DNA from: a virus
IMG/VR virus record: IMGVR_UViG_3300045988_052964
Coordinates: 1 to 38,806 of that record
Strand: one strand, 5' to 3'
Length of the DNA: 38,806 bases
In this document: one piece after another, positions 13,268 through 32,813 of the stretch
Layout: each line of letters opens with the position of its first letter
Numbering within the stretch: the first letter of the stretch is position 1
The notes under the pieces: model-generated
What the model was told of the DNA's origin: nothing
Seen by the model: the letters and a program-made list of their open reading frames with translations, nothing else
Database searches by the model: none
Translations under genes and position numbers: made by a program

Positions 13268-13274
13268 TGTTTTG

Positions 13275-13305
13275 AGCCTACCTTTAGGGGTAGGCTTATT
13301 TTTTA
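13275..13305 (+). terminator. Intrinsic terminator after the endolysin gene
   Basis: 8-bp stem AGCCTACC/GGTAGGCT with a 6-nt loop, followed by TATTTTTT. Confidence 0.8.
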
Positions 13306-13316
13306 TGCTTTTAAAA

Positions 13317-13345
13317 TTGATAGCAACAGCTTATACTGATATAAT
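13317..13345 (+). promoter_or_regulatory. Sigma-70-type promoter (TTGATA, 17-bp spacer, TATAAT)
   Basis: -35 at 13317-13322 and -10 at 13340-13345. Confidence 0.6.
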
Positions 13346-13351
13346 ATAGTT

Positions 13352-13418
13352 GCAGGCGCTACAGTGTTGGTACACTGACTAAACAGACCCTACTAAATTG
13401 TAGGGTCTTATTTTTTTT
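13352..13418 (+). ncRNA. Candidate small RNA of about 65 nt (promoter to terminator, no ORF)
   Basis: Contains hairpin CAGTGT-TGGT-ACACTG followed by a terminator hairpin AGACCCTAC/GTAGGGTCT plus a T8 run (13385-13418). Confidence 0.3.
13385..13418 (+). terminator. Intrinsic terminator
   Basis: 9-bp stem with a 6-nt loop, followed by TATTTTTTTT. Confidence 0.75.
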
Positions 13419-13440
13419 GCACTTTTTTATAAAAAAGGTA

Positions 13441-13473: not shown

Positions 13474-13502
13474 TTGTAAGATAAATAGAGGAGGTCATTA
13501 TT

Positions 13503-14072
13503 ATGAGTATTGAAAAAATCTTTGATTTAGCCGAAGAGCTAAACCTGGTAAACAAGACGTTTACCACAGCAGACGGACGTGATGGAGAAACCGGGATAGA
13601 TGGTTGGCTATACCTGCCAGAAACGACGGTATTCCGTGAAGGAAATAAAGTTGCCAGAGTTTTTGTTTCTAATTTCTTTGGTAACTTAATTGAATTCGCG
13701 GATGGTACAAGCTTGGATGTGTCCAAAGAAAAAGGCTTTGATAAAGCTATTGCCAAAATTAAGAAAATTTCTCAAAACAGTCCTGATAATTCAGAGTTAA
13801 CATTTGAGGAAAAACATCCAAACGAAACGTTTGATGTTGATGGGCTTCCGGTTGATGATGCTATGATCAGTATTATCAACATGGTAGGGGACAACTTTGA
13901 AGTCTTTTTCGATGTTCCCGATTGTGTCGATGGTTGGGCTATCGTCGAAATAAAGGACGATAACAACATCGTTCCTGTTGAAGTAGATGATACTTCAATT
14001 AAATTAGATGATGAAGAAATAACAGCTGTCGAACTTGTACATCATCTAAGCAAAATCTTCAAAGAACGATAG
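13503..14072 (+). CDS. Highly acidic early protein of unknown function
   Basis: RBS AGAGGAGG. 189 aa. By my count it has 41 D/E against 18 K/R. It is the first gene of the early operon. Confidence 0.7.
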   Translation: MSIEKIFDLAEELNLVNKTFTTADGRDGETGIDGWLYLPETTVFREGNKVARVFVSNFFGNLIEFADGTSLDVSKEKGFDKAIAKIKKISQNSPDNSELTFEEKHPNETFDVDGLPVDDAMISIINMVGDNFEVFFDVPDCVDGWAIVEIKDDNNIVPVEVDDTSIKLDDEEITAVELVHHLSKIFKER

Positions 14073-14085
14073 GAGGCGATTAAAT

Positions 14086-14298
14086 ATGCAAAAGTACACA
14101 ACGCTCAGAGTTTTAAGAGCTGAACGGGATTTGACTCAAGCCAGCCTAGCCCAAGCACTAGGAGTCACGCAAAAAGTGATTTCATCGTGGGAGACGGGCC
14201 GAAGCAATCCCAGACCCGTGATGATGCAAAAGGTAGAAGACTTTTTCAACGTGCCAAAGGAAGAGATTTTTCTAAAAGCCTTTGGGAAGAGCAAATAG
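14086..14298 (+). CDS. XRE/Cro-type HTH transcriptional regulator
   Basis: LRAERDLTQASLAQALGVTQKVISSWETG is a classical HTH_3 pattern. Confidence 0.8.
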   Translation: MQKYTTLRVLRAERDLTQASLAQALGVTQKVISSWETGRSNPRPVMMQKVEDFFNVPKEEIFLKAFGKSK

Positions 14299-14309
14299 GA
14301 GGAACTGAA

Positions 14310-15098
14310 ATGAGTGAACTAAAAATATTAGGAACTGAAAAAATTGGTAGTTTTGAATTTACTGGAATTGAAGGCGGCTTTGGTGAAAATAAAAGAGCCA
14401 TGCTAGTTAAAGATATAGCTTTGATCCATGACAGACCAGTTAAAGCAATTAACCAAGCGATAGAAAGACAACTTAACAGATTTAAAAATGGGATAGATAT
14501 CTTAGATTTGAAGGCTGAAAATTTTGCGGTCACACTGAGTGACCTCGGATTTAATCAAGGGCAGATTAACGCATCCAAACATATCTACCTACTCTCAGAG
14601 CGTGGATATGCCAAGTTACTCAAAATTCTTGAAGATGATAAAGCTTGGGAAATCTATGATGAGTTGGTGGATAACTACTTTAACATGAGATACGTCATTC
14701 AAAAGCAAGACTCATATATGATCAACGACCCAATTCAACGCGCTAAACGTTGGATTGAAGAGCAGCAGGAACACCAAGCCAAATTAAATATACTGCAGCC
14801 TAAGGCAATCAAATATGATCGCTACTTAAGCAACAAAGGACTGATTACAACTACTCAGATCGCCAAAGAATACGGGATGAGCGGGGTCAAATTATATCAG
14901 TTCTTACACGATAAAGGGATCATCTATAAGCGAGGTAGCAAATGGTTTGTTTATCAAAAATTTGCAAATAGCCACTTAGTAGGATATGAGATTTTCGCAC
15001 CAAATGATAATATCGTTAAACATACGCTCAAATGGACTACTAAAGGCGAACAATTTGTTAGAGAGTTACTTGAGGCTAATGACATAATGCCAGCTTAA
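14310..15098 (+). CDS. Antirepressor-type protein (ORF6N/KilA-N-like N-terminus plus KilAC C-terminus)
   Basis: ATG 14310 with RBS AGGAGG. The C-terminus LITTTQIAKEYGMSGVKLYQFLHDKGIIYKRG is KilAC-like. The track start 14187 overlaps the HTH gene and is rejected. Confidence 0.7.
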   Translation: MSELKILGTEKIGSFEFTGIEGGFGENKRAMLVKDIALIHDRPVKAINQAIERQLNRFKNGIDILDLKAENFAVTLSDLGFNQGQINASKHIYLLSERGYAKLLKILEDDKAWEIYDELVDNYFNMRYVIQKQDSYMINDPIQRAKRWIEEQQEHQAKLNILQPKAIKYDRYLSNKGLITTTQIAKEYGMSGVKLYQFLHDKGIIYKRGSKWFVYQKFANSHLVGYEIFAPNDNIVKHTLKWTTKGEQFVRELLEANDIMPA

Positions 15099-15112
15099 GG
15101 AGGAAAATTATT

Positions 15113-15784
15113 ATGACAAAGAAAAATAAAAAAGAAAACGAAAATGTTTATGTTGCAAAGAAACCATTTTACAAGAGAGTTTGGTTCTGGATCTTAGCTA
15201 TTTTGGCTATTATAGTTATTGGAGGAGCTGTAGGTGGTGGATCTGATCCAGATACATCGCCAACTTCAGAGAACAACTCAAGTTCAAGCTCAAGCAATAA
15301 GGCTAGCACTCAAAACGATGCATTTAGAAAAGCATTTGATAATATAACTGTCGGTGATTTGATGAACCACGGCGATGGTGGAACAACCCTTAGTGATGTC
15401 GAGAAAGTTTTAGGCAAGCCTTCCACAACATCAACAACAACTATACAGGGAATAGAAACTAAAAATTACATCTGGAGTAAAGGCGGTGTGTCCATTACCG
15501 TTGTATTTAATGGCGATCAGGCTGTTTCTAAGCATATAACAGGTTTCAAATTCTCACGTGCTCCTAAATTCAATCTAGACGCTTATAACAGTCTTGAAGA
15601 TGGTTCTTCGTATGAAGATGTTGTAAGTAAGTATGGTGAGCCTGATGGTTTAAGTGAAATGATTATTGGTGGTAATAAGAATGTTACTGCAACATGGGCA
15701 ACCGGCACTAAAGGTGGTACAATTACATTAGAATTTACAAATGACAGTTTAGTTTCTAAAGCGCAATCTGGTTTAGAAAACTAA
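15113..15784 (+). CDS. Membrane-anchored extracytoplasmic protein (DUF3862/BLIP-like repeats)
   Basis: N-terminal TM segment VWFWILAILAIIVIGGAV, a Ser-rich linker, then two similar domains (..LSDVEKVLGKPS.. and ..YEDVVSKYGEPD..). Confidence 0.6.
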   Translation: MTKKNKKENENVYVAKKPFYKRVWFWILAILAIIVIGGAVGGGSDPDTSPTSENNSSSSSSNKASTQNDAFRKAFDNITVGDLMNHGDGGTTLSDVEKVLGKPSTTSTTTIQGIETKNYIWSKGGVSITVVFNGDQAVSKHITGFKFSRAPKFNLDAYNSLEDGSSYEDVVSKYGEPDGLSEMIIGGNKNVTATWATGTKGGTITLEFTNDSLVSKAQSGLEN

Positions 15785-15804
15785 AACTAAAAATAAGCCA
15801 AGAG

Positions 15805-15843
15805 GTCTTACTTCTACTACAGTAGAGGTAAGGCTTTTTTTAT
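15805..15843 (+). terminator. Intrinsic terminator
   Basis: 13-bp stem (two G-U pairs) with a 4-nt loop and a T7 run. Confidence 0.8.
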
Positions 15844-15900
15844 TCGCATTATTTATTGATTAAATAAAATACACTTTTTTAAAAAAAGTTCAAAAAAGTA

Positions 15901-15928
15901 TTTACTTTTATAAAAAGTTTAGTATAAT
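15901..15928 (+). promoter_or_regulatory. Promoter (TTTACT, 16-bp spacer, TATAAT)
   Basis: -10 at 15923-15928, upstream of the HTH gene. Confidence 0.45.
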
Positions 15929-15957
15929 AAAAGTATAAAGTTAAAGGAGGCAATAAC

Positions 15958-16164
15958 ATGGATTTATTAAAAGACAATGCTAACTCTATTTTAAAGGAAG
16001 AGTTGAAAAATAAAGGTTTAAAGCAAAAGTTTGTAGCTGAACATATTGGAATTGCAAACACATACCTAAGCCAATTGTTAAATGGCAGTAAGCCTTTGAC
16101 TGTTGAAGTTGCAATCAAAACGGCACGTTTCTTGAATGTACCACTTGAAAAGATTTTAAATTAG
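15958..16164 (+). CDS. XRE-type HTH regulator
   Basis: LKQKFVAEHIGIANTYLSQLLNG is an HTH pattern. RBS AAAGGAGG. Confidence 0.7.
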   Translation: MDLLKDNANSILKEELKNKGLKQKFVAEHIGIANTYLSQLLNGSKPLTVEVAIKTARFLNVPLEKILN

Positions 16165-16179
16165 AAAGGAAGAATTGAA

Positions 16180-16896
16180 ATGAAAGAACTTATCAAAATT
16201 ACAAAAGATGAACAAGGAATTTCAGTTGTTAGTGGTAGAGACTTACACGAATTTTTAGGAATTAACACAGAATATAAGAAATGGTTTAACCGTATGACCG
16301 AGTATGGTTTCACAGAAAATGCAGATTTTGTAAGGGTGACCCAAAAATGTCACACCCCTGGTGGAATTCAAAACATCACAGATCACGCAATGATTTTGGA
16401 CATGGCAAAAGAAATATCTATGATCCAACGAACAAATAAAGGCAAACAAGCACGTCAATATTTTATCGAAGTAGAAAAGGAATTCAGAAAGCAATGTCAA
16501 CTGCCTCAAACTCCAGAAGAAAAACTCGAATTAACGATGCAAGTAACAACACGGATCAATAAGCGACTTGGGAAGGTTGAAGAAAAGATTGACGAAATTC
16601 AAAACAAATCAGAAATTGACTCAGATCAGCGATATAAGCTTTGGGTTGCTAGAAACAAGAAAGCAGTCAAGACACTAGGCGGCAAAGATAGCAATGCTTA
16701 TAAGAACAAGATTTTATCAAGAAGAGTATTTAGAGTTTTAGAACGTGAATTCAAAGAAGCATTTGTGATTTCACGTTACGAAGATCTTAAGAAAGAAAAT
16801 TTTGATAAAGCGATAGATTTTATTGATAATTGGTATCCGCCATGTGGTTTAAACCGAGAGATTGAAGCTATAAACTCACAAGAAAATTTATTCTAA
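16180..16896 (+). CDS. Antirepressor-type protein (AntA N-terminus plus ORF6C-like C-terminus)
   Basis: VVSGRDLHEFLGINTEYKKWFNRMTEYGFTENADF is AntA-like. The C-terminus is helical and ORF6C-like. Confidence 0.65.
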   Translation: MKELIKITKDEQGISVVSGRDLHEFLGINTEYKKWFNRMTEYGFTENADFVRVTQKCHTPGGIQNITDHAMILDMAKEISMIQRTNKGKQARQYFIEVEKEFRKQCQLPQTPEEKLELTMQVTTRINKRLGKVEEKIDEIQNKSEIDSDQRYKLWVARNKKAVKTLGGKDSNAYKNKILSRRVFRVLEREFKEAFVISRYEDLKKENFDKAIDFIDNWYPPCGLNREIEAINSQENLF

Positions 16897-16908
16897 GGAG
16901 GTGATCAG

Positions 16909-17013
16909 GTGAAACCTGTATTAGCGGTTTTGGCTGCTTGCCTGGTTTACATCACCGTGTTTGTCGGTGTGAGTTGGGCTAAAGATAAAATTAATGATTG
17001 GAATGATAAATAA
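16909..17013 (+). CDS. Small single-TM peptide (34 aa)
   Basis: GTG start with RBS AAGGAGGTG. Sequence VKPVLAVLAACLVYITVFVGVSWAKDKINDWNDK. Confidence 0.45.
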   Translation: MKPVLAVLAACLVYITVFVGVSWAKDKINDWNDK

Positions 17014-17111
17014 TGTGGTGTATATACGGAATATTCGCATGTATGGCATTTGCCTGTAGTGTAGATCTTTATAGATGGAACAAGAAACGTAAGGGAGGTG
17101 ATGAAAAATGA
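17013..17111 (+). CDS. Small single-TM peptide (32 aa)
   Basis: TAATG coupling with the upstream gene. Sequence MWCIYGIFACMAFACSVDLYRWNKKRKGGDEK. Confidence 0.4.
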   Translation: MWCIYGIFACMAFACSVDLYRWNKKRKGGDEK

Positions 17112-17221
17112 TTACATTAACTAACGCTGGTTATTGGACCTTGATAGGTTTATCAGTACTTGGCGGCTATGTACTGCACGCCGTAATAGATGCAATCAAA
17201 GATGGAACTTTCTTCGATTAG
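17108..17221 (+). CDS. Small single-TM peptide (37 aa)
   Basis: RBS AAGGGAGGTG. ATGA overlap with the upstream gene. Sequence MITLTNAGYWTLIGLSVLGGYVLHAVIDAIKDGTFFD. Confidence 0.45.
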   Translation: MITLTNAGYWTLIGLSVLGGYVLHAVIDAIKDGTFFD

Positions 17222-17329
17222 AAATAAAAAAGCTAGATCGTTAAGACCTAGCTCTTCAGGAAGACATAAATTTAAAATAAGAATTTAAAATTGAATTTGT
17301 GTCTTTATTATAACACAAGGAGGTAAGCA

Positions 17330-17485
17330 ATGGAAAGAGGAGAAATAGATCAAGCTATTGAACACCTATATGGCAAGGATACGACAGCCTTACCAGATGA
17401 TAGATATTTAGAGCACAAAGGACAAGAATACCTTAACAGTCAAGGCTGGTTAGAACGTGAGTTAGGAAACAAGAAAGGAAGATAA
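17330..17485 (+). CDS. Hypothetical 51-aa protein
   Basis: RBS AAGGAGG lies 7 nt upstream. Sequence begins MERGEIDQAIEHLYGKD... Confidence 0.45.
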   Translation: MERGEIDQAIEHLYGKDTTALPDDRYLEHKGQEYLNSQGWLERELGNKKGR

Positions 17486-17489
17486 AAAA

Positions 17490-17951
17490 ATGAATGAATT
17501 ACAAAAATTTAATTTTGAAGGTAACGATTTAGCAGTTAAGGAAATCGAAGGGCAAGTTTATTTCAATGCAGAACAAGCCGCTATTGGTTTGGGTTTGTTT
17601 GAAAAGAAGAATGGGAAAGTCTATGTACGCTGGAGAAACGTGTCTAAATATCTTTCGCAAGAAGTTGCGAAAGGCGATTTTATCACTGAACCACAATTTT
17701 ACAAGTTTGCTATTAAGGCAAACAATCCAGTTGCAGAAAAATTCCAAGATTGGGTCACGGATGAAGTATTACCTGCAATTCGTAAACATGGAGCTTACAT
17801 GACAGACGAGAAAGCTTTTGACGTTGTTCACAACGCTAGTGGATTAGCAGACTTACTACAACAAGCAGCCGACCAATTGAAGGCTAAAGATATTCAGATT
17901 GCAGAAAGGAAGCCTAAAGCATTGTTCACTGATAGTGTTGCCGTTTTATAA
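17490..17951 (+). CDS. Bro-N domain antirepressor-type protein truncated at the start of its KilAC domain
   Basis: Bro-N motifs (FNAEQAAIGLG, FQDWVTDEVLPAIRKHGAYM). The protein ends 8 codons after KPKALFTDSVA. Confidence 0.7.
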   Translation: MNELQKFNFEGNDLAVKEIEGQVYFNAEQAAIGLGLFEKKNGKVYVRWRNVSKYLSQEVAKGDFITEPQFYKFAIKANNPVAEKFQDWVTDEVLPAIRKHGAYMTDEKAFDVVHNASGLADLLQQAADQLKAKDIQIAERKPKALFTDSVAVL

Positions 17952-17969
17952 AAATCAAGGAGGAAAAAT

Positions 17970-18698
17970 ATGATGAATGAATTAATTAAAGTAACAGTTA
18001 AGGACAACCAACAATTAGTTAGTGCTAGAGACTTACACAAAGGGTTAGAACTTAAAAAGCAATTCACGGATTGGGTAAAACAAAATTTCGATGTATTTAT
18101 TGAGAATGAAGATTTTACGTTTACCCCTAGAAGTGTAAACATGCCAAACGGCGGGACAAAAGCGGTTAAAGATTACGCAATCACGGTAAGCATGGCGAAA
18201 GAATTAGCTATGATGAGTAGGACTAAAAAAGGAAAAGAGTATAGAAAATACTTTTTAAAATTAGAACAAGCTTGGAATAGTCCTGAAATGGTTATGAAAA
18301 GAGCTTTAGAAATTGCTAACAAGAAAGTAGAACAATTGAAACTTGAAAATCAAGAAATGAAGCCTAAAGCATTATTTGCGGATAGTGTTGCAGCAAGCCA
18401 TACAACAATTTTAATTGGCGAACTAGCTAAAATCTTACGTGGCAATGGAATTGATATTGGCGCTAATAGATTGTTCCGATGGATGCGAGACCAAGGCTAT
18501 CTTATCAGTAGAAAAGGGACGGACTACAATACGCCAACTCAGAAAAGTATGGATTTAGGGTTATTTAAGATTAAAGAGTCGACCGTTATACACAGTGATG
18601 ACTCAACATCTATCCGTAAGACAACTAAAGTTACCGGCAAAGGGCAACAGTATTTTATCAACAAGTTCATGAAGATGAAGGGGGAAGAAACATGCTAG
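17970..18698 (+). CDS. Antirepressor-type protein (AntA N-terminus plus full KilAC C-terminus)
   Basis: LVSARDLHKGLELKKQFTDWVKQNF is AntA-like. KPKALFADSVAASHTTILIGELAKIL... is KilAC-like. Confidence 0.7.
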   Translation: MMNELIKVTVKDNQQLVSARDLHKGLELKKQFTDWVKQNFDVFIENEDFTFTPRSVNMPNGGTKAVKDYAITVSMAKELAMMSRTKKGKEYRKYFLKLEQAWNSPEMVMKRALEIANKKVEQLKLENQEMKPKALFADSVAASHTTILIGELAKILRGNGIDIGANRLFRWMRDQGYLISRKGTDYNTPTQKSMDLGLFKIKESTVIHSDDSTSIRKTTKVTGKGQQYFINKFMKMKGEETC

Positions 18699-19207
18699 AG
18701 AATGAAGATTTCGAAATTGAAAAAGAAGCTTACGAGATTACAAGCACGGAAGAGGCGTTGCTGACGTTTGAACAAATATTTGATGAGCAAAGCAAGATTA
18801 AGAATTTGAAGGACAAAATAAAGCAAACTAAGAGCTTCTATGAAAATCAGATCAAGTATGAAGAGTTCAAAGTAGATAACCTTAAGAACGCTTTGCTTGC
18901 ATATTACGAGAAACAAAAGATGGCAAACCCTAAAGTTAAGATCAAATCACCATTCGGGAATTTTGTAAGTCACAAAGAAAAGCTAGATTTTGAACTTGAC
19001 GAAGAAAAATTAATTGAGAAATACAACGGAACTGATTTAGTTAAAACTACATCAACATTGTATAAAGGTGATTTAAAGAAACGCTTATCAGTTATCGGAG
19101 ACAAAGTAGTCGATACAGAAACAGGTGAAGTTGTAGATGGGGCTAATCCAGTAACTAAACCGGCTTATGTATCAGTATCAATCAAGAAACCTAAGGAGGA
19201 CAAATAA
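18692..19207 (+). CDS. Gp157-like / Gam-like coiled-coil recombination accessory protein
   Basis: 171-aa acidic coiled-coil protein immediately upstream of the ERF gene. Confidence 0.45.
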   Translation: MLENEDFEIEKEAYEITSTEEALLTFEQIFDEQSKIKNLKDKIKQTKSFYENQIKYEEFKVDNLKNALLAYYEKQKMANPKVKIKSPFGNFVSHKEKLDFELDEEKLIEKYNGTDLVKTTSTLYKGDLKKRLSVIGDKVVDTETGEVVDGANPVTKPAYVSVSIKKPKEDK

Positions 19208-19208
19208 T

Positions 19209-19886
19209 ATGCAAAGTGAAAATTTAGATAAGTTATTCAAAGGTATGAATACCTTCAGAAGTCAATTAAAACAACCAGCAAAGGACGCAAAGAACCCGTT
19301 CTTTAAATCTAATTACGTAACACTTGAAGGCGTTCAAAACGCAATAGATGCAGCTATTAAGGGCACAGGGCTTGCATATACTCAAATCGTTAAGAATGAC
19401 GATAACGGCAATGTAGGAGTTGAGACAATCATTACTCATGAAAGTGGGCAATATCTTACTACTGGGGTTCTTGCATTACGCCCAGAAAAAGCAACTCCTC
19501 AAGGTTATGGCTCTACTATCACATACGCCAAACGTTATCAATTAGCTTCAGCGTTCGGTGTCAGCTCAGATGTTGATGATGATGGAAACGTTGGGAGTGG
19601 AAACTTTAAGACACCAGCAAAAGGAAATTATCAACAAAACAATTATCAACAAAGTTATCAACAACCGAGACAACAAGTACAACAGAAACAGGTAAGCCTA
19701 GAAGTTGAATATAATAGCTTATTTAATAAAGTATTAAAAGCTTTAGGAACTGATAAAGATGATTTACAGGCTCGAATAAATGGCCAGTTAACCCAAATGT
19801 TCCCCGACGACACAAGAACAGAGGATAAGTTTAAACATGGAATTATGATTTTAAAAGGGCTCATAGAAAGCAAGGCTGATAAATAA
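19209..19886 (+). CDS. erf: ERF-family single-strand annealing protein
   Basis: NPFFKSNYVTLEGVQNAI...TYAKRYQLASAFGV. ATG 19209 with RBS AAGGAGGA. Confidence 0.75.
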   Translation: MQSENLDKLFKGMNTFRSQLKQPAKDAKNPFFKSNYVTLEGVQNAIDAAIKGTGLAYTQIVKNDDNGNVGVETIITHESGQYLTTGVLALRPEKATPQGYGSTITYAKRYQLASAFGVSSDVDDDGNVGSGNFKTPAKGNYQQNNYQQSYQQPRQQVQQKQVSLEVEYNSLFNKVLKALGTDKDDLQARINGQLTQMFPDDTRTEDKFKHGIMILKGLIESKADK

Positions 19887-20560
19887 TGTTTGGCAAGTTG
19901 ATCGGTATCCAAGGAAACGTGCTTAAAATCGTCCCTGACGAAGATTTAGACATAGCCAAGGTAAATAGACTCGCTAATGGTAAACAGCCCACAGTCGAGC
20001 TAAAAATAGCCGATAACAGGAAGATAAGCCCAGAACAACGTAAGAAAATATTTGCATTGATTAATGATCTATGTTCTTACACTGGAGATGTTCCAGAATA
20101 TTGGGAAACAGTATTTAAGTATCAAGTACGAGAAACGTTTGGAGTAGATGAGTTCAGCTTGTCTGACTGCTCCATCACGATAGGAAATTACATGATCTTG
20201 GTAATTTTAAATTTTATGTTTGAAGAAGATATACCTTTCAAGACTAAGACGTGGGATAGTTTGCCAAGCGAGTTTCCAAAACAAATGTTGTGTCTTAAAA
20301 ATAAGCGCTGTGTGTTGTGTGGTAAGCCTGCAGATATTGCACACTATCATGCTGTAGGAGCTGGTAGAAATCGAAATAAGATTAATCACGTTGGCAATTA
20401 CATCATGACTTTATGCAGAGAATGTCACACAGAGCAGCATAAGATAGGCGTTAAGAGTTTTCTTATGAAGTACCATATAAAGCCTATCAAAGTTACAGAA
20501 GATATAGCAAAACAATTTAAATTAGGAGTGATAGATAATGACATTACCAGAATTGATTGA
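19886..20560 (+). CDS. Putative HNHc-type nuclease
   Basis: C-terminal Cys/His cluster CVLCGKPADIAHYHAVG...LCRECHTEQH. Confidence 0.6.
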   Translation: MFGKLIGIQGNVLKIVPDEDLDIAKVNRLANGKQPTVELKIADNRKISPEQRKKIFALINDLCSYTGDVPEYWETVFKYQVRETFGVDEFSLSDCSITIGNYMILVILNFMFEEDIPFKTKTWDSLPSEFPKQMLCLKNKRCVLCGKPADIAHYHAVGAGRNRNKINHVGNYIMTLCRECHTEQHKIGVKSFLMKYHIKPIKVTEDIAKQFKLGVIDNDITRID

Positions 20561-29240: not shown

Positions 29241-29730
29241 TTAAAATTTTGACCTTAGTTTCAGAGGAATGTTAAATCAATTGACCTTAGCACGTCATTA
29301 AACTGCTAAATACTGACGTGGTTATTTGAACGGTATACATTCACAAAAAACCGTAAATCAGGATCTCGCAAATAACGACACAGTACAGGCTTAGCATCTG
29401 TCGAAGGGTGCTGAGTCATAGGCAGTAGAGATGTAAGGAAGCTATAAAACAAAAATTTATTAAAAAGGTAGGTGTAATTTCCCTTTCTCATTAATTCATG
29501 CAGTAGCAGCCGAGCAAATTTATTGCCGAAACTAGACTATCCTTAGTTGCAGACTGCAAATTGTGAGCAAAAAAAATTATGAAAGAAGGTTCAAGCCTTC
29601 GTATATTCTTCGTATCTTGTTTGCAACTAATCTGCCTTGTATCTGCAAAATTTGAGCCAGTCACACGTTTTTGAGAGCGTGGCAAGGTATTTATACCGGT
29701 ATAATATTAAAACGATAAGGAGAGGTGAAA

Positions 29731-30418: not shown

Positions 30419-30451
30419 TAAAAACGATTGTATCATAAGGAGTGCAGGCTT

Positions 30452-30892
30452 GTGGAAGATATGCTACTAGATTTACCTCAGGTTAATTACGATGGAACAG
30501 CTGATAACGTTGTAAAGTTTCTAACAAACAGAAGCTACTACCCTAGGATGTATGATATATACATGCAAGCTAATCCAGAGAAATTAAAGAGCCCAAGTTT
30601 AAGTGGTATGCCTGGAGGTAGTGTTGGAAACAGCAACGAAAATAAAATGATCAAATATTTGTATGCAAAGGCGATTGTAGATGGAGTTAGACAAACGATA
30701 GACAAGGGTTCGCATGAGTTAAAAGTAGTGTTTAGTAACATAACCGGAGAGATAAGTGCGGTTGAAGCGATGCGAATGTTACACTATGAAAAAACAAGAT
30801 ACTACTTAATTAGAAAACAGGCTTTAAATGAATTTGCCGATATTTTAGAAGTTCAAAATTTGCATTGCCCAGATCTACATGCTTATATTTGA
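30452..30892 (+). CDS. ArpU-family late transcriptional regulator
   Basis: KSPSLSGMPGGS motif and a C-terminal HTH/sigma region-4-like segment. GTG 30452 lies 9 nt after AAGGAG; the track start is TTG 30428. Confidence 0.6.
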   Translation: MEDMLLDLPQVNYDGTADNVVKFLTNRSYYPRMYDIYMQANPEKLKSPSLSGMPGGSVGNSNENKMIKYLYAKAIVDGVRQTIDKGSHELKVVFSNITGEISAVEAMRMLHYEKTRYYLIRKQALNEFADILEVQNLHCPDLHAYI

Positions 30893-31034
30893 ATATTGCA
30901 TAAAAGCGGAGACCAAAGGGATTTGTTGAAAACGTACATTGAAAGCAAAAAGGATGCAGCCAAACGAAAAAGGTGGTATTATATTATTGTCGAAAGACAT
31001 AGTTAATCATTCATTTCAAAATTAAATAGTTTGC

Positions 31035-31063
31035 TTTTCAAAGACAGCGAGATGAGTTATAAT
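31035..31063 (+). promoter_or_regulatory. Promoter (TTTTCA, 17-bp spacer, TATAAT); candidate late promoter downstream of the ArpU-family gene
   Basis: -10 at 31058-31063. Confidence 0.45.
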
Positions 31064-31069
31064 AAACTT

Positions 31070-31357
31070 GTCTCTTATGTGGTGTGTAGGAGCACCACAC
31101 TCTGACATTAAATAACTTTAGCGTGATATTCTTTGGTTTTTCATTACTGAGAATAAGCCTCCTTTAGAATGATATTTGGAGTGTGGTTCCAGTTCGATCC
31201 TGGAACACTACTTTGTGTGTATGACACTATCCATACCGTGACCACAACGTTATGTGGATATAATTGTAATTCCTATTGTTATTCATGTTGGCTTTTCAAC
31301 TATCATTTTTCATTATATTCCTTTACAGAGAACAGTTTTAATGACTGTTCTTTTTTT
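31070..31357 (+). ncRNA. Candidate structured leader or ncRNA of about 290 nt
   Basis: No credible ORF or RBS. Hairpin 31078-31099. T-arm-like hairpin TTCCAG-TTCGATC-CTGGAA at 31187-31205. Hairpin CCACA-ACGTTA-TGTGG. Ends in a terminator. Confidence 0.3.
31327..31357 (+). terminator. Intrinsic terminator 22 nt upstream of the Panacea gene start
   Basis: Stem GAACAGT/ACTGTTC (extendable to 10 bp) with a 7-nt loop and a T7 run. Confidence 0.7.
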
Positions 31358-31378
31358 ATACAATTTAGGAGGTTGTTT

Positions 31379-31888
31379 ATGCAAAAAATTGAATTGCAAA
31401 GCCCTATAGCTGTGGCTAATTTTATAATTGAAGTTGCTAAGAAAGAAGGAAATCCAGTTACAAATTTGAAGCTTCAGAAAGTTTTATTTTTTCTACAGGG
31501 ATATTGTTTGAATGAGTACAATAGGATATTATTTGATGGAAAATTTGCTAAGTGGCAATATGGCCCTATTGAAGAAGAAATATATCAGATATTTAAACCT
31601 CAGGGATCCATGCCTATTGATTTTCTAAGTACACAAGGAAAAATCGAAAATGGGATAATAAAGTTGTATCACGAAAAAATTGATTTACCTCAAGAATACA
31701 TTGAGGAATTGAAAAGCGTGGTGATAAAGATAAATCAAAAAGCACCATGGGAATTGTTTGAATTAACGCATAAACATAGTAGCTGGTATTCTTATAAAGA
31801 CGATATAAGCAGGGGAATTGCAATTGATTATGCAAACGATGAGATAGAAAAATGCTTCAAAGATAATTTTAGCCAGCTTAATAGCTGA
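31379..31888 (+). CDS. Panacea (DUF4065, SocA/GepA-like) antitoxin-domain protein with no adjacent toxin
   Basis: RBS AGGAGG lies 8 nt upstream. VANFIIEVAKKEGNPVTNLKLQKVLFFLQGYCL...FAKWQYGPIEEEIYQIFK matches the DUF4065 core pattern. Confidence 0.7.
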   Translation: MQKIELQSPIAVANFIIEVAKKEGNPVTNLKLQKVLFFLQGYCLNEYNRILFDGKFAKWQYGPIEEEIYQIFKPQGSMPIDFLSTQGKIENGIIKLYHEKIDLPQEYIEELKSVVIKINQKAPWELFELTHKHSSWYSYKDDISRGIAIDYANDEIEKCFKDNFSQLNS

Positions 31889-31910: not shown

Positions 31911-32813
31911 GTGATACCAATTTTACAACTAGATGAAAGGAAAGTTCGAAAAGGAAAACCTATTGGACTCCCATATGTTGGAAGCAAGAAAAAAATATCA
32001 AAAAAAATCGTGGAGATAATCAAACAAAACTTCGGAACTGATATACCAGTTTACGATGTTTTCGGCGGTGGTGGTGCAATTACTGCAGAACTGCTATTGA
32101 ATAATATGCAGGCCCACTACAATGACTTAGACAGCGATGTTACAAGTATGTTTACCAGAGTTATCTCACAAGATAGAGAATGGATCAAAACATTGGCTGT
32201 TTCACGTGATGAGTTTCTAACTATCCGTGATAAAAAAGGAAAAACAGTTGATGACAATTTGAAGTTACTGGTCAATTCTTTTGCGAATAATTCAAAAAAT
32301 TACTTGTACTGCAAAGAACAGTCCAGGGCAAAATACAATCTCGCAATTGAAATTATAAAAAAACATGATGTGTTTAGTGGCTACAAGCAAACGGGAACCT
32401 ATCGAAACGCTAAACAATCATGGCGACCGGAGCAGTTAGAACGACTACAACAATTAGAACAACTACAACAATTAGAACAACTACAACAGTTGAAGGAAGC
32501 GCGAGACCCAGAGATAACTAATTATGACTATACAGCATTTTCAAATGTTGAGAATGCTATTTTTTATCTGGACCCACCATACCAAAACACAATGAATGGA
32601 TATAAATTTGAGTTCAATCATTCGTTATTTTATGACTGGTGTGTTGAGATGGCAAAAAAAAATATTGTAATTATTTCCAGCTACAGCATTCCAGATCCGC
32701 GTTTTAAGGTTGTTTGGGAGTTTAAAACGGCGCGTGGTTCGTTTGCTGGAGGCGTAAATAAGAAGTATGAGCAACTTTACATGGTTTCGGAAGGATTAAA
32801 TCAACTAAGCTAA
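31911..32813 (+). CDS. Orphan N6-adenine DNA methyltransferase (Dam/D12 class)
   Basis: PYVGSKKKI, FGGGGAIT (motif I) and LDPPYQNT (motif IV). The GTG start is uncertain because the RBS directly abuts it. Confidence 0.75.
   Translation: MIPILQLDERKVRKGKPIGLPYVGSKKKISKKIVEIIKQNFGTDIPVYDVFGGGGAITAELLLNNMQAHYNDLDSDVTSMFTRVISQDREWIKTLAVSRDEFLTIRDKKGKTVDDNLKLLVNSFANNSKNYLYCKEQSRAKYNLAIEIIKKHDVFSGYKQTGTYRNAKQSWRPEQLERLQQLEQLQQLEQLQQLKEARDPEITNYDYTAFSNVENAIFYLDPPYQNTMNGYKFEFNHSLFYDWCVEMAKKNIVIISSYSIPDPRFKVVWEFKTARGSFAGGVNKKYEQLYMVSEGLNQLS
32433..32496 (+). repeat. In-frame 18-bp tandem repeat (about 3.5 units of CTACAACAATTAGAACAA) encoding (LQQLEQ)n
   Basis: Two units are identical (32445-32462 and 32463-32480) and are flanked by degenerate units. 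Confidence 0.85.

What the first reader, a model, noticed from the sequence alone, without database searches (positions are those of the whole stretch)
30893..31378. Promoter, roughly 290-nt structured leader, then a strong terminator placed directly in front of the Panacea-methylase-terminase gene block
The 485-bp gap after the ArpU-family late-regulator gene has no credible ORF. It contains a TATAAT promoter (31035-31063), several hairpins, and a clean intrinsic terminator (31327-31357) that ends only 22 nt before the RBS and ATG of the next gene. No promoter fits between the terminator and that gene. The downstream genes, and probably the packaging and late genes beyond them, therefore have to be expressed by terminator read-through. 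This is the same layout as lambda PR'-6S RNA-tR' with Q, or the HK022 put RNA system. The leader contains mutually exclusive helices: TGTGGTGTG (31078) pairs with CACCACAC (31093), CCACACTC (31095) pairs with GAGTGTGG (31179), and GTGGTGT (31079) can also pair with ACACTAC (31205). It also has five TGTGGT/ACCACA motifs and a tRNA T-arm look-alike (TTCCAG-TTCGATC-CTGGAA). Possible readings are a cis-acting antitermination or attenuation RNA, a stable phage ncRNA, or a relic of a tRNA-derived attachment core.
Basis: partly seen in the sequence, partly recalled or inferred. Interest (0 to 1): 0.75.

Follow-up and report, generated by a model that had tools for sequence, protein, structure and literature searches.

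The report
tRNA-like RNA in phage late-operon leader
The gap after the phage's late-gene regulator holds a conserved, previously uncatalogued RNA that folds like the top half of a tRNA and ends in a terminator the late genes must be read through; a rarely seen layout, but its function is not yet known.

Summary
The sequence features are real. No ORF in the gap is conserved. A strong intrinsic terminator (31327-31357) ends 22 nt before the next gene's ATG, with no promoter between them. The competing helices and the T-arm look-alike are also there.

The promoter call is wrong. TATAAT at 31058-63 lies in the loop of a covarying hairpin and occurs in only 2 of 17 relatives. The conserved promoter-like core is TGGTATTAT-AT-TATTGTCG (30974-30992), directly after the arpU gene. 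That gives a leader of about 365 nt, not 290.

The same 384-441-nt module follows arpU in about 17 distinct Ligilactobacillus phage sequences, although the downstream gene differs. Covariation supports a + strand RNA (99% of cells paired, 9 compensatory pairs, 0/500 shuffles). It has hairpin P0, a tRNA-like three-way junction at 31079-31212, two more hairpins and the terminator. The junction has a 7-bp acceptor stem with G3·U70, a long helix with a swappable insert, and a canonical T-arm.

Rfam and ARAGORN find nothing. Closer relatives without the RNA keep the promoter core and a leader terminator. More distant ArpU phages carry genuine tRNA genes in the same slot.

Best reading: a tRNA-derived or tRNA-mimicking passenger in the late leader, probably cut out by RNase P and RNase Z, with obligatory terminator read-through. 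Function untested.

The parts
30428..30892 (+). ArpU-family late transcriptional regulator gene (context)
   Evidence: TIGR01637 43.6 bits (cut-off 43.1) and phrog_248 E 3.8e-22. The AF2 model gives only weak matches, to sigma-28 and ECF sigma region 4.
30893..30973 (+). Candidate ArpU-binding repeat region, directly distal to arpU
   Evidence: A-rich AAAGG-type repeats (D3: AAAGCAAAAAGG / AAACGAAAAAGG, 20 nt apart). Relatives have clear arrays with 11-nt spacing at the same place: CGGAAA x5 in L012, AGTGTAGA x4 in L058, AGTGAAC x4-5 in L146. Published Ltr/ArpU sites are direct repeats just distal to the ltr gene (PMC3753634). Binding here is inferred.
30974..30992 (+). Conserved -35-less late-promoter core TGGTATTAT-AT-TATTGTCG. 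The extended -10 is at 30974-30982 and a second -10-like hexamer at 30985-30990. Predicted start is about 30989-30999.
   Evidence: It is invariant or nearly so in all 15 aligned relatives. RNA-less ArpU relatives also keep it (GTGCTATTATGGTATTGTAGCAAAGG). TATTGTCG is shared even with L146, whose ArpU is 28% identical. The transcription start is not mapped.
31051..31072 (+). Hairpin P0 (7 bp).
   Evidence: Helix 1: 3 of 7 pairs change on both sides and 98.3% of cells are paired. The loop sequence is not conserved.
31079..31212 (+). tRNA-like domain. Acceptor-like stem 31079-85/31205-11 with G3·U70. D-loop analogue GTAGGAGC at 31086-93. Helix P2 31094-31103/31178-31187. T-stem 31188-92/31200-04 with T-loop TTCGATC at 31193-99. 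Position 73 is U (31212). No CCA is encoded.
   Evidence: RNAalifold predicts this junction without any constraint. Acceptor stem 100% paired, P2 99.4%, T-arm 100% with CG<->AU (9:8) and GC<->AU (15:2) swaps. The G53-C61 closing pair is present in 17/17 and the T-loop UUCRA in 17/17 by inspection. Covariance model R1 scores 233 bits here and finds a single copy in the window.
31104..31177 (+). Variable insert carried by P2, in place of the D and anticodon arms. It includes an anti-SD-like CCTCC at 31160-64.
   Evidence: There are three sequence types, giving domain lengths of 136-170 nt among 17 distinct variants. No tag-like ORF is conserved.
31213..31257 (+). Hairpins P4 (31213-31241) and P5 (31242-31257). 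P4 begins directly after the position where RNase Z would cut.
   Evidence: Helices 5 and 6 each have 2 pairs with changes on both sides, for example CCACA/TGTGG to CTGCA/TGCAG in L029.
31303..31313 (+). Conserved block ATCATTTTTCA, role unknown
   Evidence: ATCATTTTT is invariant in all relatives, while the surrounding spacer varies and has no consensus structure.
31327..31357 (+). Intrinsic terminator of the leader
   Evidence: 11-bp stem, 5-nt loop, T7 run, -12.5 kcal/mol. It is conserved in all relatives, with a compensatory variant in L001.
31367..31888 (+). SD (31367-72) and the first downstream gene (ATG 31379), a Panacea/SocA-like protein. This is the start of the read-through-dependent block: methylase, terS, terL.
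   Evidence: PF13274 E 7.3e-16. Downstream are MethyltransfD12, phrog_309 terS and Terminase_6N. Relatives have a different first gene after the same module.

Best explanation
The gap is the leader of the ArpU-controlled late operon of a Ligilactobacillus (salivarius-group) siphophage.

Transcription most likely starts just downstream of a conserved, -35-less promoter core at 30974-30992. That core sits right after the repeat region where ArpU-type activators are known to bind.

The resulting RNA of about 365 nt contains, in order:
- hairpin P0;
- a 134-nt tRNA-like domain;
- two further hairpins;
- an intrinsic terminator 22 nt before the first late gene.

The tRNA-like domain has a 12-bp acceptor/T-stem minihelix, a canonical T-loop, a GG-containing D-loop analogue and a G3·U70 pair. 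A long helix with a swappable insert replaces the D and anticodon arms.

In more distant ArpU phages the same slot holds genuine CCA-less tRNA genes. The domain is therefore most likely a tRNA-derived or tRNA-mimicking passenger.

I infer that RNase P (5' of G31079, which has U-1 and A-2) and RNase Z (after U31212) excise it. That would give a stable tRNA-like small RNA and leave a downstream RNA whose 5' end is capped by hairpin P4.

The Panacea, methylase and terminase genes can be expressed only by polymerases that pass the terminator. It is unknown whether that passage is passive leakage or is promoted by ArpU-modified polymerase.

Shown: conservation, structure, strand, layout and the tRNA slot. 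Inferred: transcription start, processing and read-through mechanism. Unknown: the function of the RNA in trans.
For: - Conserved module: all 14 IMG/VR relatives of the ArpU protein keep the roughly 500-nt non-coding stretch (68-88% identity), although the next gene differs. With the metagenome and protein look-up loci this gives 17 distinct variants.
- Structure: 45 pairs, 99.0% of cells paired, 9 pairs with changes on both sides, 0/500 shuffles reaching the observed value, and only 36-48% paired when partners are slid.
- Strand: many invariant G·U pairs would become C·A mismatches on the - strand.
- tRNA hallmarks: a 7-bp acceptor stem contiguous with a 5-bp T-stem, T-loop UUCRA in 17/17, the G53-C61 pair in 17/17, GG in the D-loop analogue, and G3·U70 in 16/17.
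- Promoter core: it is conserved in relatives with and without the RNA. Repeat arrays lie upstream of it, as published for Ltr proteins (PMC3753634).
- Terminator: it is conserved, and no promoter follows it in this phage.
- tRNA slot: tRNA-Asn, tRNA-Trp and tRNA-Pro lie between arpU and the first late gene in L140-L142 and L146. All lack an encoded CCA and have U-rich trailers, and the leader has a terminator there too.
- Not essential: a natural deletion variant (L003/L053) loses the domain between GGAACAC repeats but keeps the promoter, P4, P5 and the terminator.
Against: - There are no expression data. The start site, processing sites and termination efficiency are all unmeasured.
- The acceptor stem and P2 vary only by one-sided A-U/G-U/G-C changes, which also fit the competing local hairpin. 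The two conformers are nearly isoenergetic.
- The domain lacks D and anticodon arms. It scores with neither Rfam tRNA or tmRNA models nor default ARAGORN.
- The family is narrow: one host group and 17 distinct sequences. It is absent from 65 more distant ArpU loci.
- The window and L029 do carry a 10/12 promoter match at 31035-63, which could add a second start.
- A function as a processed tRNA mimic is only an analogy.
Confidence: 0.5

Rival explanations
1. Q-like protein antitermination. The promoter core fires constitutively and makes the terminated leader RNA of about 365 nt, a '6S-like' product. ArpU, bound at the adjacent repeats, loads onto RNA polymerase and makes it terminator-resistant, which switches on the late genes. 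The tRNA-like domain would be cargo. This is compatible with the best explanation for the RNA itself.
For: - The layout matches lambda Q-PR'-6S-tR': regulator gene, its DNA sites, promoter, non-coding leader, intrinsic terminator, then late genes with no other promoter.
- The same layout occurs in RNA-less relatives. In L058 and L043 a separate terminator already ends the early unit upstream of the repeats.
- In L146 a tRNA-Pro lies after the leader terminator with no promoter before it.
- The core has an extended -10, which can work without a -35.
- In staphylococcal phages RinA needs sequences more than 155 bp upstream of the mapped terS 5' end, and a terminator lies between them. The authors called this mechanism unexplained (PMC3152322).
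Against: - The ArpU model shows no similarity to Q proteins in the PDB. Its best matches are weak (E >= 0.5) and are to sigma-28 and ECF sigma region 4.
- Published work describes Ltr proteins as activators that bind upstream of the late promoter (PMC3753634).
- Some RNA-less relatives have a -10-like TTGTATTAT or TGATATAAT directly after the leader terminator, so they may simply re-initiate there.
Confidence: 0.15
2. Cis-acting RNA switch or put-like antiterminator. The leader RNA itself controls the terminator or modifies the polymerase. This could work through the bistable pairing 1:2/3:4 against 1:4/2:3, or through binding of a tRNA-recognising factor.
For: - The four segments TGTGGTGT, CRCCRCAC(TC), GAGTGTGG and ACACTAC can pair in two exclusive ways. 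The two conformers are within 0-4 kcal/mol in all 17 variants.
- All A/G substitutions are compatible with both folds.
- Terminator read-through is obligatory in this phage.
Against: - The terminator lies 115 nt beyond the domain. No conserved alternative pairing with either terminator arm was found.
- RNA-less relatives have the same promoter core and a leader terminator.
- The L003/L053 deletion variant lacks the switch segments but keeps the terminator.
- No Rfam riboswitch, T-box or other known family matches.
Confidence: 0.15
3. Independent small RNA of about 290 nt made from the first reader's promoter (31035-31063). It would start near 31070 and end at the terminator.
For: TTTTCA-17-TATAAT is a 10/12 match. 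A start at about 31070 would lie 9 nt before the acceptor-like stem.
Against: - The -10 is absent in 15 of 17 variants.
- It lies in the loop of P0, which covaries and therefore belongs to the RNA.
- Promoter-like matches in this AT-rich region are at the chance level.
Confidence: 0.08
4. A DNA-level element rather than an RNA: a relic tRNA-derived attachment core, or a cos/pac site.
For: Integrases commonly target a T-arm plus the 3' acceptor strand. Packaging sites often lie upstream of terS.
Against: - No integrase was found among the ten genes following the endolysin that were screened; four of them are Ant-like genes. The rest of the window was not screened against protein families, but no ORF of 80 aa or more on the - strand lies clear of a + strand ORF.
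- Both strands of every helix are constrained by RNA-type G·U and compensatory changes.
- A species-representative genome scan for the T-arm block gave only chance hits.
- Phages with the RNA carry different terminase types.
Confidence: 0.03
5. Miniature tmRNA: an alanine-charged tRNA-like domain plus a short tag reading frame in the insert.
For: The architecture matches a tmRNA tRNA-like domain, including G3·U70. Some inserts have GCA or GCG followed by short frames, for example GCAGAGCATGAATTATAA in the type-B insert.
Against: - The frames are not conserved. They run from 1 to 10 codons, there is no stop in L002, and the GC is lost in L004.
- There are no pseudoknots.
- ARAGORN tmRNA mode finds nothing even at a relaxed threshold. 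Rfam tmRNA models do not match.
Confidence: 0.02

Closest known systems
Genuine phage tRNA genes in the arpU-to-late-gene leader of other ArpU phages (L140, L141, L142, L146)
   Same: They occupy the same slot on the same strand, after ArpU-box repeats and a TATTAT/TATTG-type core. None encodes CCA, the trailers are U-rich, and an intrinsic terminator lies in the leader before the first late gene.
   Different: Those are full cloverleaf tRNAs (Asn, Trp, Pro) that Rfam and ARAGORN recognise. The window element has no D or anticodon arm; a 10-bp helix with a 74-nt variable insert takes their place. No sequence similarity to them was detected.
tRNA-like domain of tmRNA
   Same: A three-way junction of a 7-bp acceptor stem with G3·U70, a D-loop analogue containing GG, a long helix 2 leading away, and a 5-bp T-stem with a 7-nt T-loop abutting the 3' acceptor strand.
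   Different: There is no conserved tag ORF, no pseudoknots and no encoded CCA. The domain is 136-170 nt. It lies inside an mRNA leader, and no tmRNA model scores.
Lambda PR' - 6S RNA - tR' with Q
   Same: The regulator gene lies directly upstream. The promoter is followed by a non-coding transcript that ends at an intrinsic terminator immediately before the late genes, so late expression needs read-through.
   Different: The regulator is ArpU/Ltr-family, weakly sigma-region-4-like, with no Q-like fold. The leader is longer and carries a tRNA-like RNA. No pause element has been demonstrated.
rinA/ltr-terS intergenic regions of staphylococcal and enterococcal phages (PMC3152322, PMC3753634)
   Same: An Ltr-family gene is followed at once by direct repeats. 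A factor-independent terminator lies in the spacer. The late genes begin about 20 nt beyond it, and the regulator acts from more than 150 bp upstream of the late-gene 5' end.
   Different: Those papers place the promoter after the terminator, with the 5' end 23 nt before terS. Here no promoter fits after the terminator, and a conserved core lies before the leader. No tRNA-like RNA is described there.
Leader-encoded, RNase P-processed phage regulatory RNAs (P1/P7 C4, P4 CI) and tRNA-mimicking Y RNAs (YrlA; PMC4201824)
   Same: These are small phage or bacterial RNAs with acceptor/T-arm mimicry that makes them substrates of tRNA enzymes. C4 and CI are cut out of operon leaders (the C4 and CI details are from my own knowledge).
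   Different: There is no sequence or model similarity (the Rfam YrlA model does not score). No Ro60 gene and no antisense target were identified.

Membership tests
tRNA | Cloverleaf with D-arm and anticodon arm, recognised by tRNA detectors | tested here: not met
   Default ARAGORN finds nothing in the window or in 34 loci. Rfam RF00005 gives no hit even at E <= 10. Only relaxed ARAGORN (-ps70 -i) calls a 'tRNA with a 71-nt intron' at 31074-31212, and that setting also produces many noise calls.
tRNA | 12-bp acceptor/T-stem minihelix with a 7-nt T-loop U54-U55-C56-R57-A58 and a G53-C61 pair | tested here: met
   Acceptor stem 7 bp and 100% paired. T-stem 5 bp and 100% paired, with compensatory swaps. 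G53-C61 in 17/17. T-loop UUCRA in 17/17 and no spacer on the 3' strand, by inspection.
tRNA | Processing by RNase P and RNase Z, CCA addition, aminoacylation | not testable with these tools
   Only sequence context is available: U-1 and A-2 before G31079, U73, a UUG trailer and no CCA. The genuine tRNAs in the same slot of L142 and L146 have the same kind of context.
tmRNA | tRNA-like domain with G3·U70 | tested here: met
   G·U at the third acceptor pair in 16/17 sequences. L012 has G3-C70 with G4·U69 instead.
tmRNA | mRNA-like domain with a conserved resume codon and tag ORF, plus pseudoknots | tested here: not met
   The inserts fall into three unrelated sequence types with no conserved frame or stop. 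ARAGORN -m finds nothing at 70% threshold. Rfam tmRNA models do not score.
Lambda-type Q antitermination unit | Promoter, non-coding leader and intrinsic terminator directly before the late genes, with no other promoter | tested here: met
   Sequence and scans. The layout recurs in relatives.
Lambda-type Q antitermination unit | Regulator with a Q-family fold | tested here: not met
   The AF2 model (pLDDT 72) searched against the PDB gave no Q protein among the 50 best matches listed. The best matches are weak and are to sigma-28 and ECF sigma region 4.
Lambda-type Q antitermination unit | Sigma-dependent promoter-proximal pause element, and regulator-dependent read-through | tested here: inconclusive
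   A second -10-like hexamer, TATTGT (30985-90), is conserved 2-3 nt after the first. Its register relative to +1 is unknown. Read-through cannot be tested here.
HK022 put-type cis antiterminator RNA | Leader RNA is required for terminator read-through | tested here: inconclusive
   This is comparative evidence only. RNA-less relatives and the L003 deletion variant keep the promoter core and a leader terminator. No functional test was possible.
Ltr/ArpU late-operon control region (PMC3753634) | ArpU-family gene directly upstream | tested here: met
   TIGR01637 is just above its cut-off (43.6 against 43.1). phrog_248 'transcriptional activator' E 3.8e-22. Pfam has no hit.
Ltr/ArpU late-operon control region (PMC3753634) | [quoted passage not shown] | tested here: met
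   The repeats are degenerate in the window but clear in relatives. The terminator is at 31327-31357.
tRNA-derived attP core | Adjacent integrase, and identity to the 3' part of a host tRNA gene | tested here: not met
   No integrase among the ten genes screened after the endolysin, and no ORF of 80 aa or more on the - strand lies clear of a + strand ORF; the other genes of the window were not screened. The genome-contig scan gave only chance hits that fail the covariance model.
Any Rfam 15 family | Score at or above the gathering threshold | tested here: not met
   The only hit in the window is salivarius-1 at 29634-29690. Nothing scores in the leader, even at E <= 10, in the window or in L010.

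The most novel reading that the evidence does not exclude
The leader domain is a working substrate of the host tRNA machinery. RNase P and RNase Z would cut it out, the CCA-adding enzyme would extend it, and AlaRS would charge it through its G3·U70 pair. That would make it a phage-made, anticodon-less adaptor resembling the tmRNA tRNA-like domain. Such an RNA could interfere with ribosome rescue or act as a decoy for tRNA-targeting defences. Its production would be tied to late transcription, because it sits between the ArpU promoter and a terminator.
Probability: 0.12. Interest if true: 0.85.

Novelty: new variant of a known kind. Interest (0 to 1): 0.6.

Why it matters
1. It defines a structured RNA family that Rfam 15 lacks and that tRNA and tmRNA finders miss. 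Its location and covariation support are clear.

2. It shows that the leader of ArpU/Ltr-type late operons is a recurring home for tRNA genes and tRNA-like RNAs. It also captures a tRNA slot that has evolved into an anticodon-less mimic with a swappable insert.

3. It shows that in this clade a conserved promoter core is separated from the late genes by an intrinsic terminator. That makes an old puzzle directly testable: how do Ltr/RinA-type regulators act from more than 150 bp upstream, across a terminator (PMC3152322)? The candidates are activation plus leaky termination, re-initiation, or antitermination.

4. If the RNA is charged or processed like a tRNA, it would be a new way for a phage to engage host translation or defence.

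Tried and rejected
- blastn (distant mode) of the 486-nt gap against 50,697 deposited phage genomes found no match. A 6.3-kb query matched only the flanking methylase and terminase genes.
- An exact 22-mer of the window's T-arm gave 0 hits in IMG/VR. Degenerate patterns were needed.
- The one genome-contig scan returned 11 hits in unrelated MAGs, and all failed the covariance model. It gave no host tRNA or prophage information.
- Rfam was run at gathering and at permissive thresholds on the window and on L010. Only chance miRNA and snoRNA hits came up.
- Default ARAGORN found nothing. The relaxed settings are noisy.
- The tmRNA tag-ORF reading was rejected because the frames are not conserved.
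- A search for trans targets, by duplex energy against all start-codon regions of the phage, gave a best energy of -34.2 kcal/mol. Shuffled controls gave -34.5 +/- 2.6, so the result is uninformative.
- A search for an antiterminator partner of the terminator arms found nothing. No consensus structure exists between P5 and the terminator.
- Sequence searches of ArpU against the PDB and Pfam found nothing significant. The fold search gave only weak sigma-like hits.
- The covariance model found no copy in 65 more distant ArpU loci or in 18 RNA-less closer relatives.
Full report
**Context.** The window is a siphophage genome of about 38.8 kb in which no ORF of 80 aa or more on the - strand lies clear of a + strand ORF. 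The gene ending at 30892 is ArpU-family: TIGR01637 scores 43.6 bits against a cut-off of 43.1, and phrog_248 'transcriptional activator' scores E 3.8e-22. Pfam has no hit. Downstream lie a Panacea/SocA-like gene (ATG 31379), a D12 methylase, terS and terL. Homologues of the ArpU protein that carry a source name come from Ligilactobacillus. The only Rfam hit in the window is the salivarius-1 RNA at 29634-29690. The host is therefore a Ligilactobacillus of the salivarius group.

**Checking the observation.** The stated sequence features are all present.
- The terminator is 31327-31353 plus a T-run to 31357, with 11 pairs and -12.5 kcal/mol.
- Its T-run ends 22 nt before the ATG. AGGAGG lies at 31367-72, and no + strand promoter match lies between them.
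- The three quoted pairings, the five TGTGG/CCACA motifs and the T-arm look-alike are real. The motif cluster is the densest in the window.
- The + strand folds better than shuffles (z = -3.3).
- The small ORFs in the gap are not conserved in relatives.

The weak point is the promoter. TTTTCA-17-TATAAT (31035-63) is a 10/12 match, but such matches occur at the chance rate here (10 found, 10.1 +/- 3.5 expected).

**Relatives.** The ArpU protein has 14 relatives in IMG/VR at 71-94% identity. All of them keep the non-coding stretch of about 500 nt after arpU (blastn 68-88%), while the next gene differs. That gene is Panacea here, a methylase in L001 and L002, terS directly in L004, a ParB-N protein in L005-L011, and others in L012-L014. 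Degenerate DNA patterns, a metagenome scan and protein look-ups raised the set to 17 distinct sequences. From the -10 to the end of the terminator the module measures 384-441 nt. No match exists in 50,697 deposited phage genomes at blastn sensitivity.

**Where the promoter really is.** In the alignment the window's TATAAT lies in the loop of a hairpin, P0 (31051-57/31066-72). The stem of P0 covaries: 3 of its 7 pairs change on both sides. Its loop is TCTATTGGAG, TTCGA, TTTAA and so on in 15 of 17 variants. The RNA must therefore begin upstream of 31051.

The one invariant block upstream is GTGGTATTAT-AT-TATTGTCGAAAG (30973-30996). It is an extended -10 with no -35, followed by a second -10-like hexamer.
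- The same block, GTGCTATTATGGTATTGTAGCAAAGG, is kept by ArpU relatives that lack the RNA.
- In L058 and L043 two extra genes separate arpU from the late genes. There the order is: a terminator ending the early unit, then four AGTGTAGA repeats at 11-nt spacing, then this block.
- L012 has five CGGAAA repeats, and L146 has AGTGAAC repeats followed by ...TATTGTCGG.

This fits published work in which Ltr/ArpU proteins bind direct repeats just distal to their own gene, upstream of the late promoter (PMC3753634). I therefore place the late promoter at 30974-30992 and the start at about 30989-30999. The leader is then about 365 nt. This is inference, because no start site has been mapped.

**The RNA.** RNAalifold on 14 sequences predicted, without any constraint, the following elements:
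- P0;
- a three-way junction made of a 7-bp stem GTGGTGT/ACACTAC (31079-85/31205-11), a 10-bp helix P2 (31094-103/31178-87) and a 5-bp stem with 7-nt loop (31188-31204);
- hairpins P4 (31213-41) and P5 (31242-57).

On the 18-sequence alignment fitted to the model (17 distinct sequences), 99.0% of 762 cells are paired. Nine pairs, or 22 cells, change on both sides. None of 500 shuffles reaches any of the four main measures. Sliding the partners drops pairing to 36-48%. P0, the T-stem, P4 and P5 carry the compensatory changes. The acceptor-like stem and P2 vary only through A-U/G-U/G-C changes and stay 100% and 99.4% paired. The many invariant G·U pairs would be C·A mismatches on the other strand, so this is a + strand RNA and not a DNA palindrome.

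**How tRNA-like it is.**
- The 3' acceptor strand follows the T-stem without a spacer, which gives the 12-bp minihelix of a tRNA.
- The T-loop reads U-U-C-R-A-N-Y in 17/17 sequences, closed by G-C in 17/17.
- The 8-nt linker GUAGGAGC keeps a GG, as D-loops do.
- The third acceptor pair is G·U in 16/17.
- Position -1 is U, position -2 is A, position 73 is U, and the trailer is UUG with no CCA.

P2 with its variable insert of 74 to about 105 nt replaces the D and anticodon arms. The insert comes in three sequence types and includes an anti-SD-like CCUCC in most. This is the architecture of the tmRNA tRNA-like domain. However, there is no conserved tag frame and no pseudoknot, and neither ARAGORN nor Rfam reports a tRNA or tmRNA. 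The element is therefore neither a tRNA nor a tmRNA.

**The competing fold.** TGTGGTG can pair locally with CRCCRCA, and GAGTGT can pair with ACACT to extend the T-hairpin. This alternative lies within 0-4 kcal/mol of the junction in all 17 variants. The junction is favoured in 13. Every substitution fits both folds, so the comparative data cannot choose between them. Tertiary T-loop/D-loop contacts would favour the junction.

**What the relatives say about mechanism.** The covariance model finds one copy in the window. It finds none in closer ArpU relatives with short spacers (L042-47, L058-65) or in 65 more distant ArpU loci. The RNA-less relatives nevertheless have the same promoter core, a leader of 100-250 nt, and an intrinsic terminator just before the first late gene. 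A deletion variant (L003/L053) has lost 31090-31199 between GGAACAC repeats but keeps everything else. The tRNA-like domain is therefore an optional passenger of the leader and is not what makes the promoter-terminator layout work. This weakens a put-like or riboswitch-like role. So do the 115-nt distance to the terminator and the lack of any conserved antiterminator pairing.

**The tRNA slot.** In ArpU relatives of only 28-30% identity, Rfam and ARAGORN find genuine tRNA genes in exactly this slot and on this strand.
- L142: arpU, then GTGNGAT repeats, then TAGTATTATCGATAATTGG, then tRNA-Asn and tRNA-Trp, then terminator 3488-3508, then RBS.
- L146: arpU, then repeats, then ...TATTGTCGG, then leader, then terminator 3163-93, then tRNA-Pro seven nt later, then RBS.

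None of these tRNAs encodes CCA, and all have U-rich trailers, like the window element. L142 also contains a possible anticodon-arm-less tRNA-like element. I saw this by eye, and the thermodynamic fold supports only its acceptor stem. The late leader of ArpU phages is thus a recurrent site for tRNA genes. The window element is best read as a derivative or mimic of such a gene. It would be expected to be excised by RNase P and RNase Z, which would leave P4 as a 5'-terminal hairpin on the downstream RNA. This last step rests on general knowledge of Firmicute tRNA processing and 5'-stabilisers and has not been shown.

**Read-through.** In this phage nothing resembling a promoter fits after the terminator. 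The sequence there is TTTTTTTATACAATTTAGGAGG, and any -10 in it would place the start inside or beyond the SD. The late genes therefore depend on read-through. In L146 the tRNA-Pro after the terminator makes the same argument.

Some RNA-less relatives do have TTGTATTAT or TGATATAAT directly after the terminator, so re-initiation may occur in those. This recalls the staphylococcal result of a terS 5' end 23 nt before the ATG, with RinA needing sequences more than 155 bp upstream (PMC3152322).

It is open whether read-through is passive or ArpU-promoted. The AF2 model of ArpU (pLDDT 72) has only weak matches, to sigma-28 and ECF sigma region 4, and none to Q proteins. This argues mildly against a Q-type mechanism.

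**Rejected readings.**
- attP relic: no integrase among the ten genes screened after the endolysin (four are Ant-like), RNA-type covariation on both strands, and no host tRNA match. The remaining genes of the window were not screened against protein families.
- cos/pac site: phages with the RNA carry different terminase types.
- Mini-tmRNA: no conserved tag.
- Trans-acting antisense RNA: no target stands out above shuffles.

**Verdict.** The lambda-like layout is real and general to this clade. The structured part is a new tRNA-like RNA family of narrow distribution, occupying a slot that holds tRNA genes in related phages. I give moderate confidence (0.5) to the 'processed tRNA-like passenger plus obligatory read-through' model. 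The function of the RNA is unknown.

Noticed in passing
window 29634-29690 (+); also L089, L091, L092, L105 (two copies), L107: There is a salivarius-1 RNA (RF03030, 70.2 bits against a gathering score of 50) in the 5' region of the 166-aa gene two genes upstream of arpU. The same motif recurs upstream of arpU in more distant relatives, so it is a phage-associated element of the early/late boundary.
   Followed up: partly
window 13273-13420: After the endolysin gene comes a terminator (13273-13298). A near-consensus promoter follows (TTGATA-17-TGATATAAT, 11/12 plus TG, 13317-13345). A second terminator (13385-13408 plus T8) lies about 40 nt further on. Together these look like a self-contained small-RNA gene of about 65 nt.
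   Followed up: no
window 13503-20560: No integrase or repressor turned up among the ten genes screened after the lysis genes. Instead there are four Ant-like anti-repressor paralogues (14187-15098, 16180-16896, 17490-17951, 17970-18698). There is also a BLIP/Sie-like gene (15113-15784), a Gam-like gene and an Erf-like gene. The phage looks like a non-integrating derivative of a temperate lineage.
   Followed up: partly
L003:4624-4729 and L053:475-580: This is a natural deletion variant of the leader RNA. The segment equivalent to window 31090-31199 (P2, the insert and the 5' half of the T-arm) is lost between two GGAACAC repeats. The promoter core, P4, P5 and the terminator remain.
   Followed up: partly
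L142:3363-3421: A possible anticodon-arm-less tRNA-like element follows tRNA-Asn and tRNA-Trp in the late leader. It has a 7-bp acceptor stem ATCGCTG/CAGCGAT, a D-arm-like GGCTAATTGGTAAGCC and a T-arm CGGGTTCGAGTCCCG. ARAGORN and Rfam do not call it, and the thermodynamic fold supports only the acceptor stem.
   Followed up: partly
L135, L140, L143, L144 (downstream of arpU): ORF-poor gaps of 0.8-1.8 kb lie between arpU and the next SD-preceded gene in distant ArpU relatives. Apart from one tRNA in L140 they have no Rfam hit. They may hold further leader RNAs, or genes that my crude ORF rule missed.
   Followed up: no
window 13499-13512, 15208-15221, 30977-30989: The motif TATTAT-N2-3-TATTG occurs 3 times on the + strand, against 0.1 expected. 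The two extra copies lie at a start codon and inside a gene, and they lack the flanking conserved bases, so they are probably chance matches.
   Followed up: partly
window 31157-31166 and the equivalent positions in relatives: The variable insert carries GCCUCCUUU or ACCUCCAUUUUU, which is identical to the anti-Shine-Dalgarno end of 16S rRNA over 5-8 nt. It is present in 12 of 17 variants; type B has CCUCUUUUU instead. It could pair with SD sequences, including AGGAGG at 31367-72.
   Followed up: no
window 32420-32521 (inside the methylase gene 31911-32813): The D12-class methylase contains a short tandem coding repeat...QLERLQQLEQLQQLEQLQQLKE.... It could be a slippage-prone tract.
   Followed up: no
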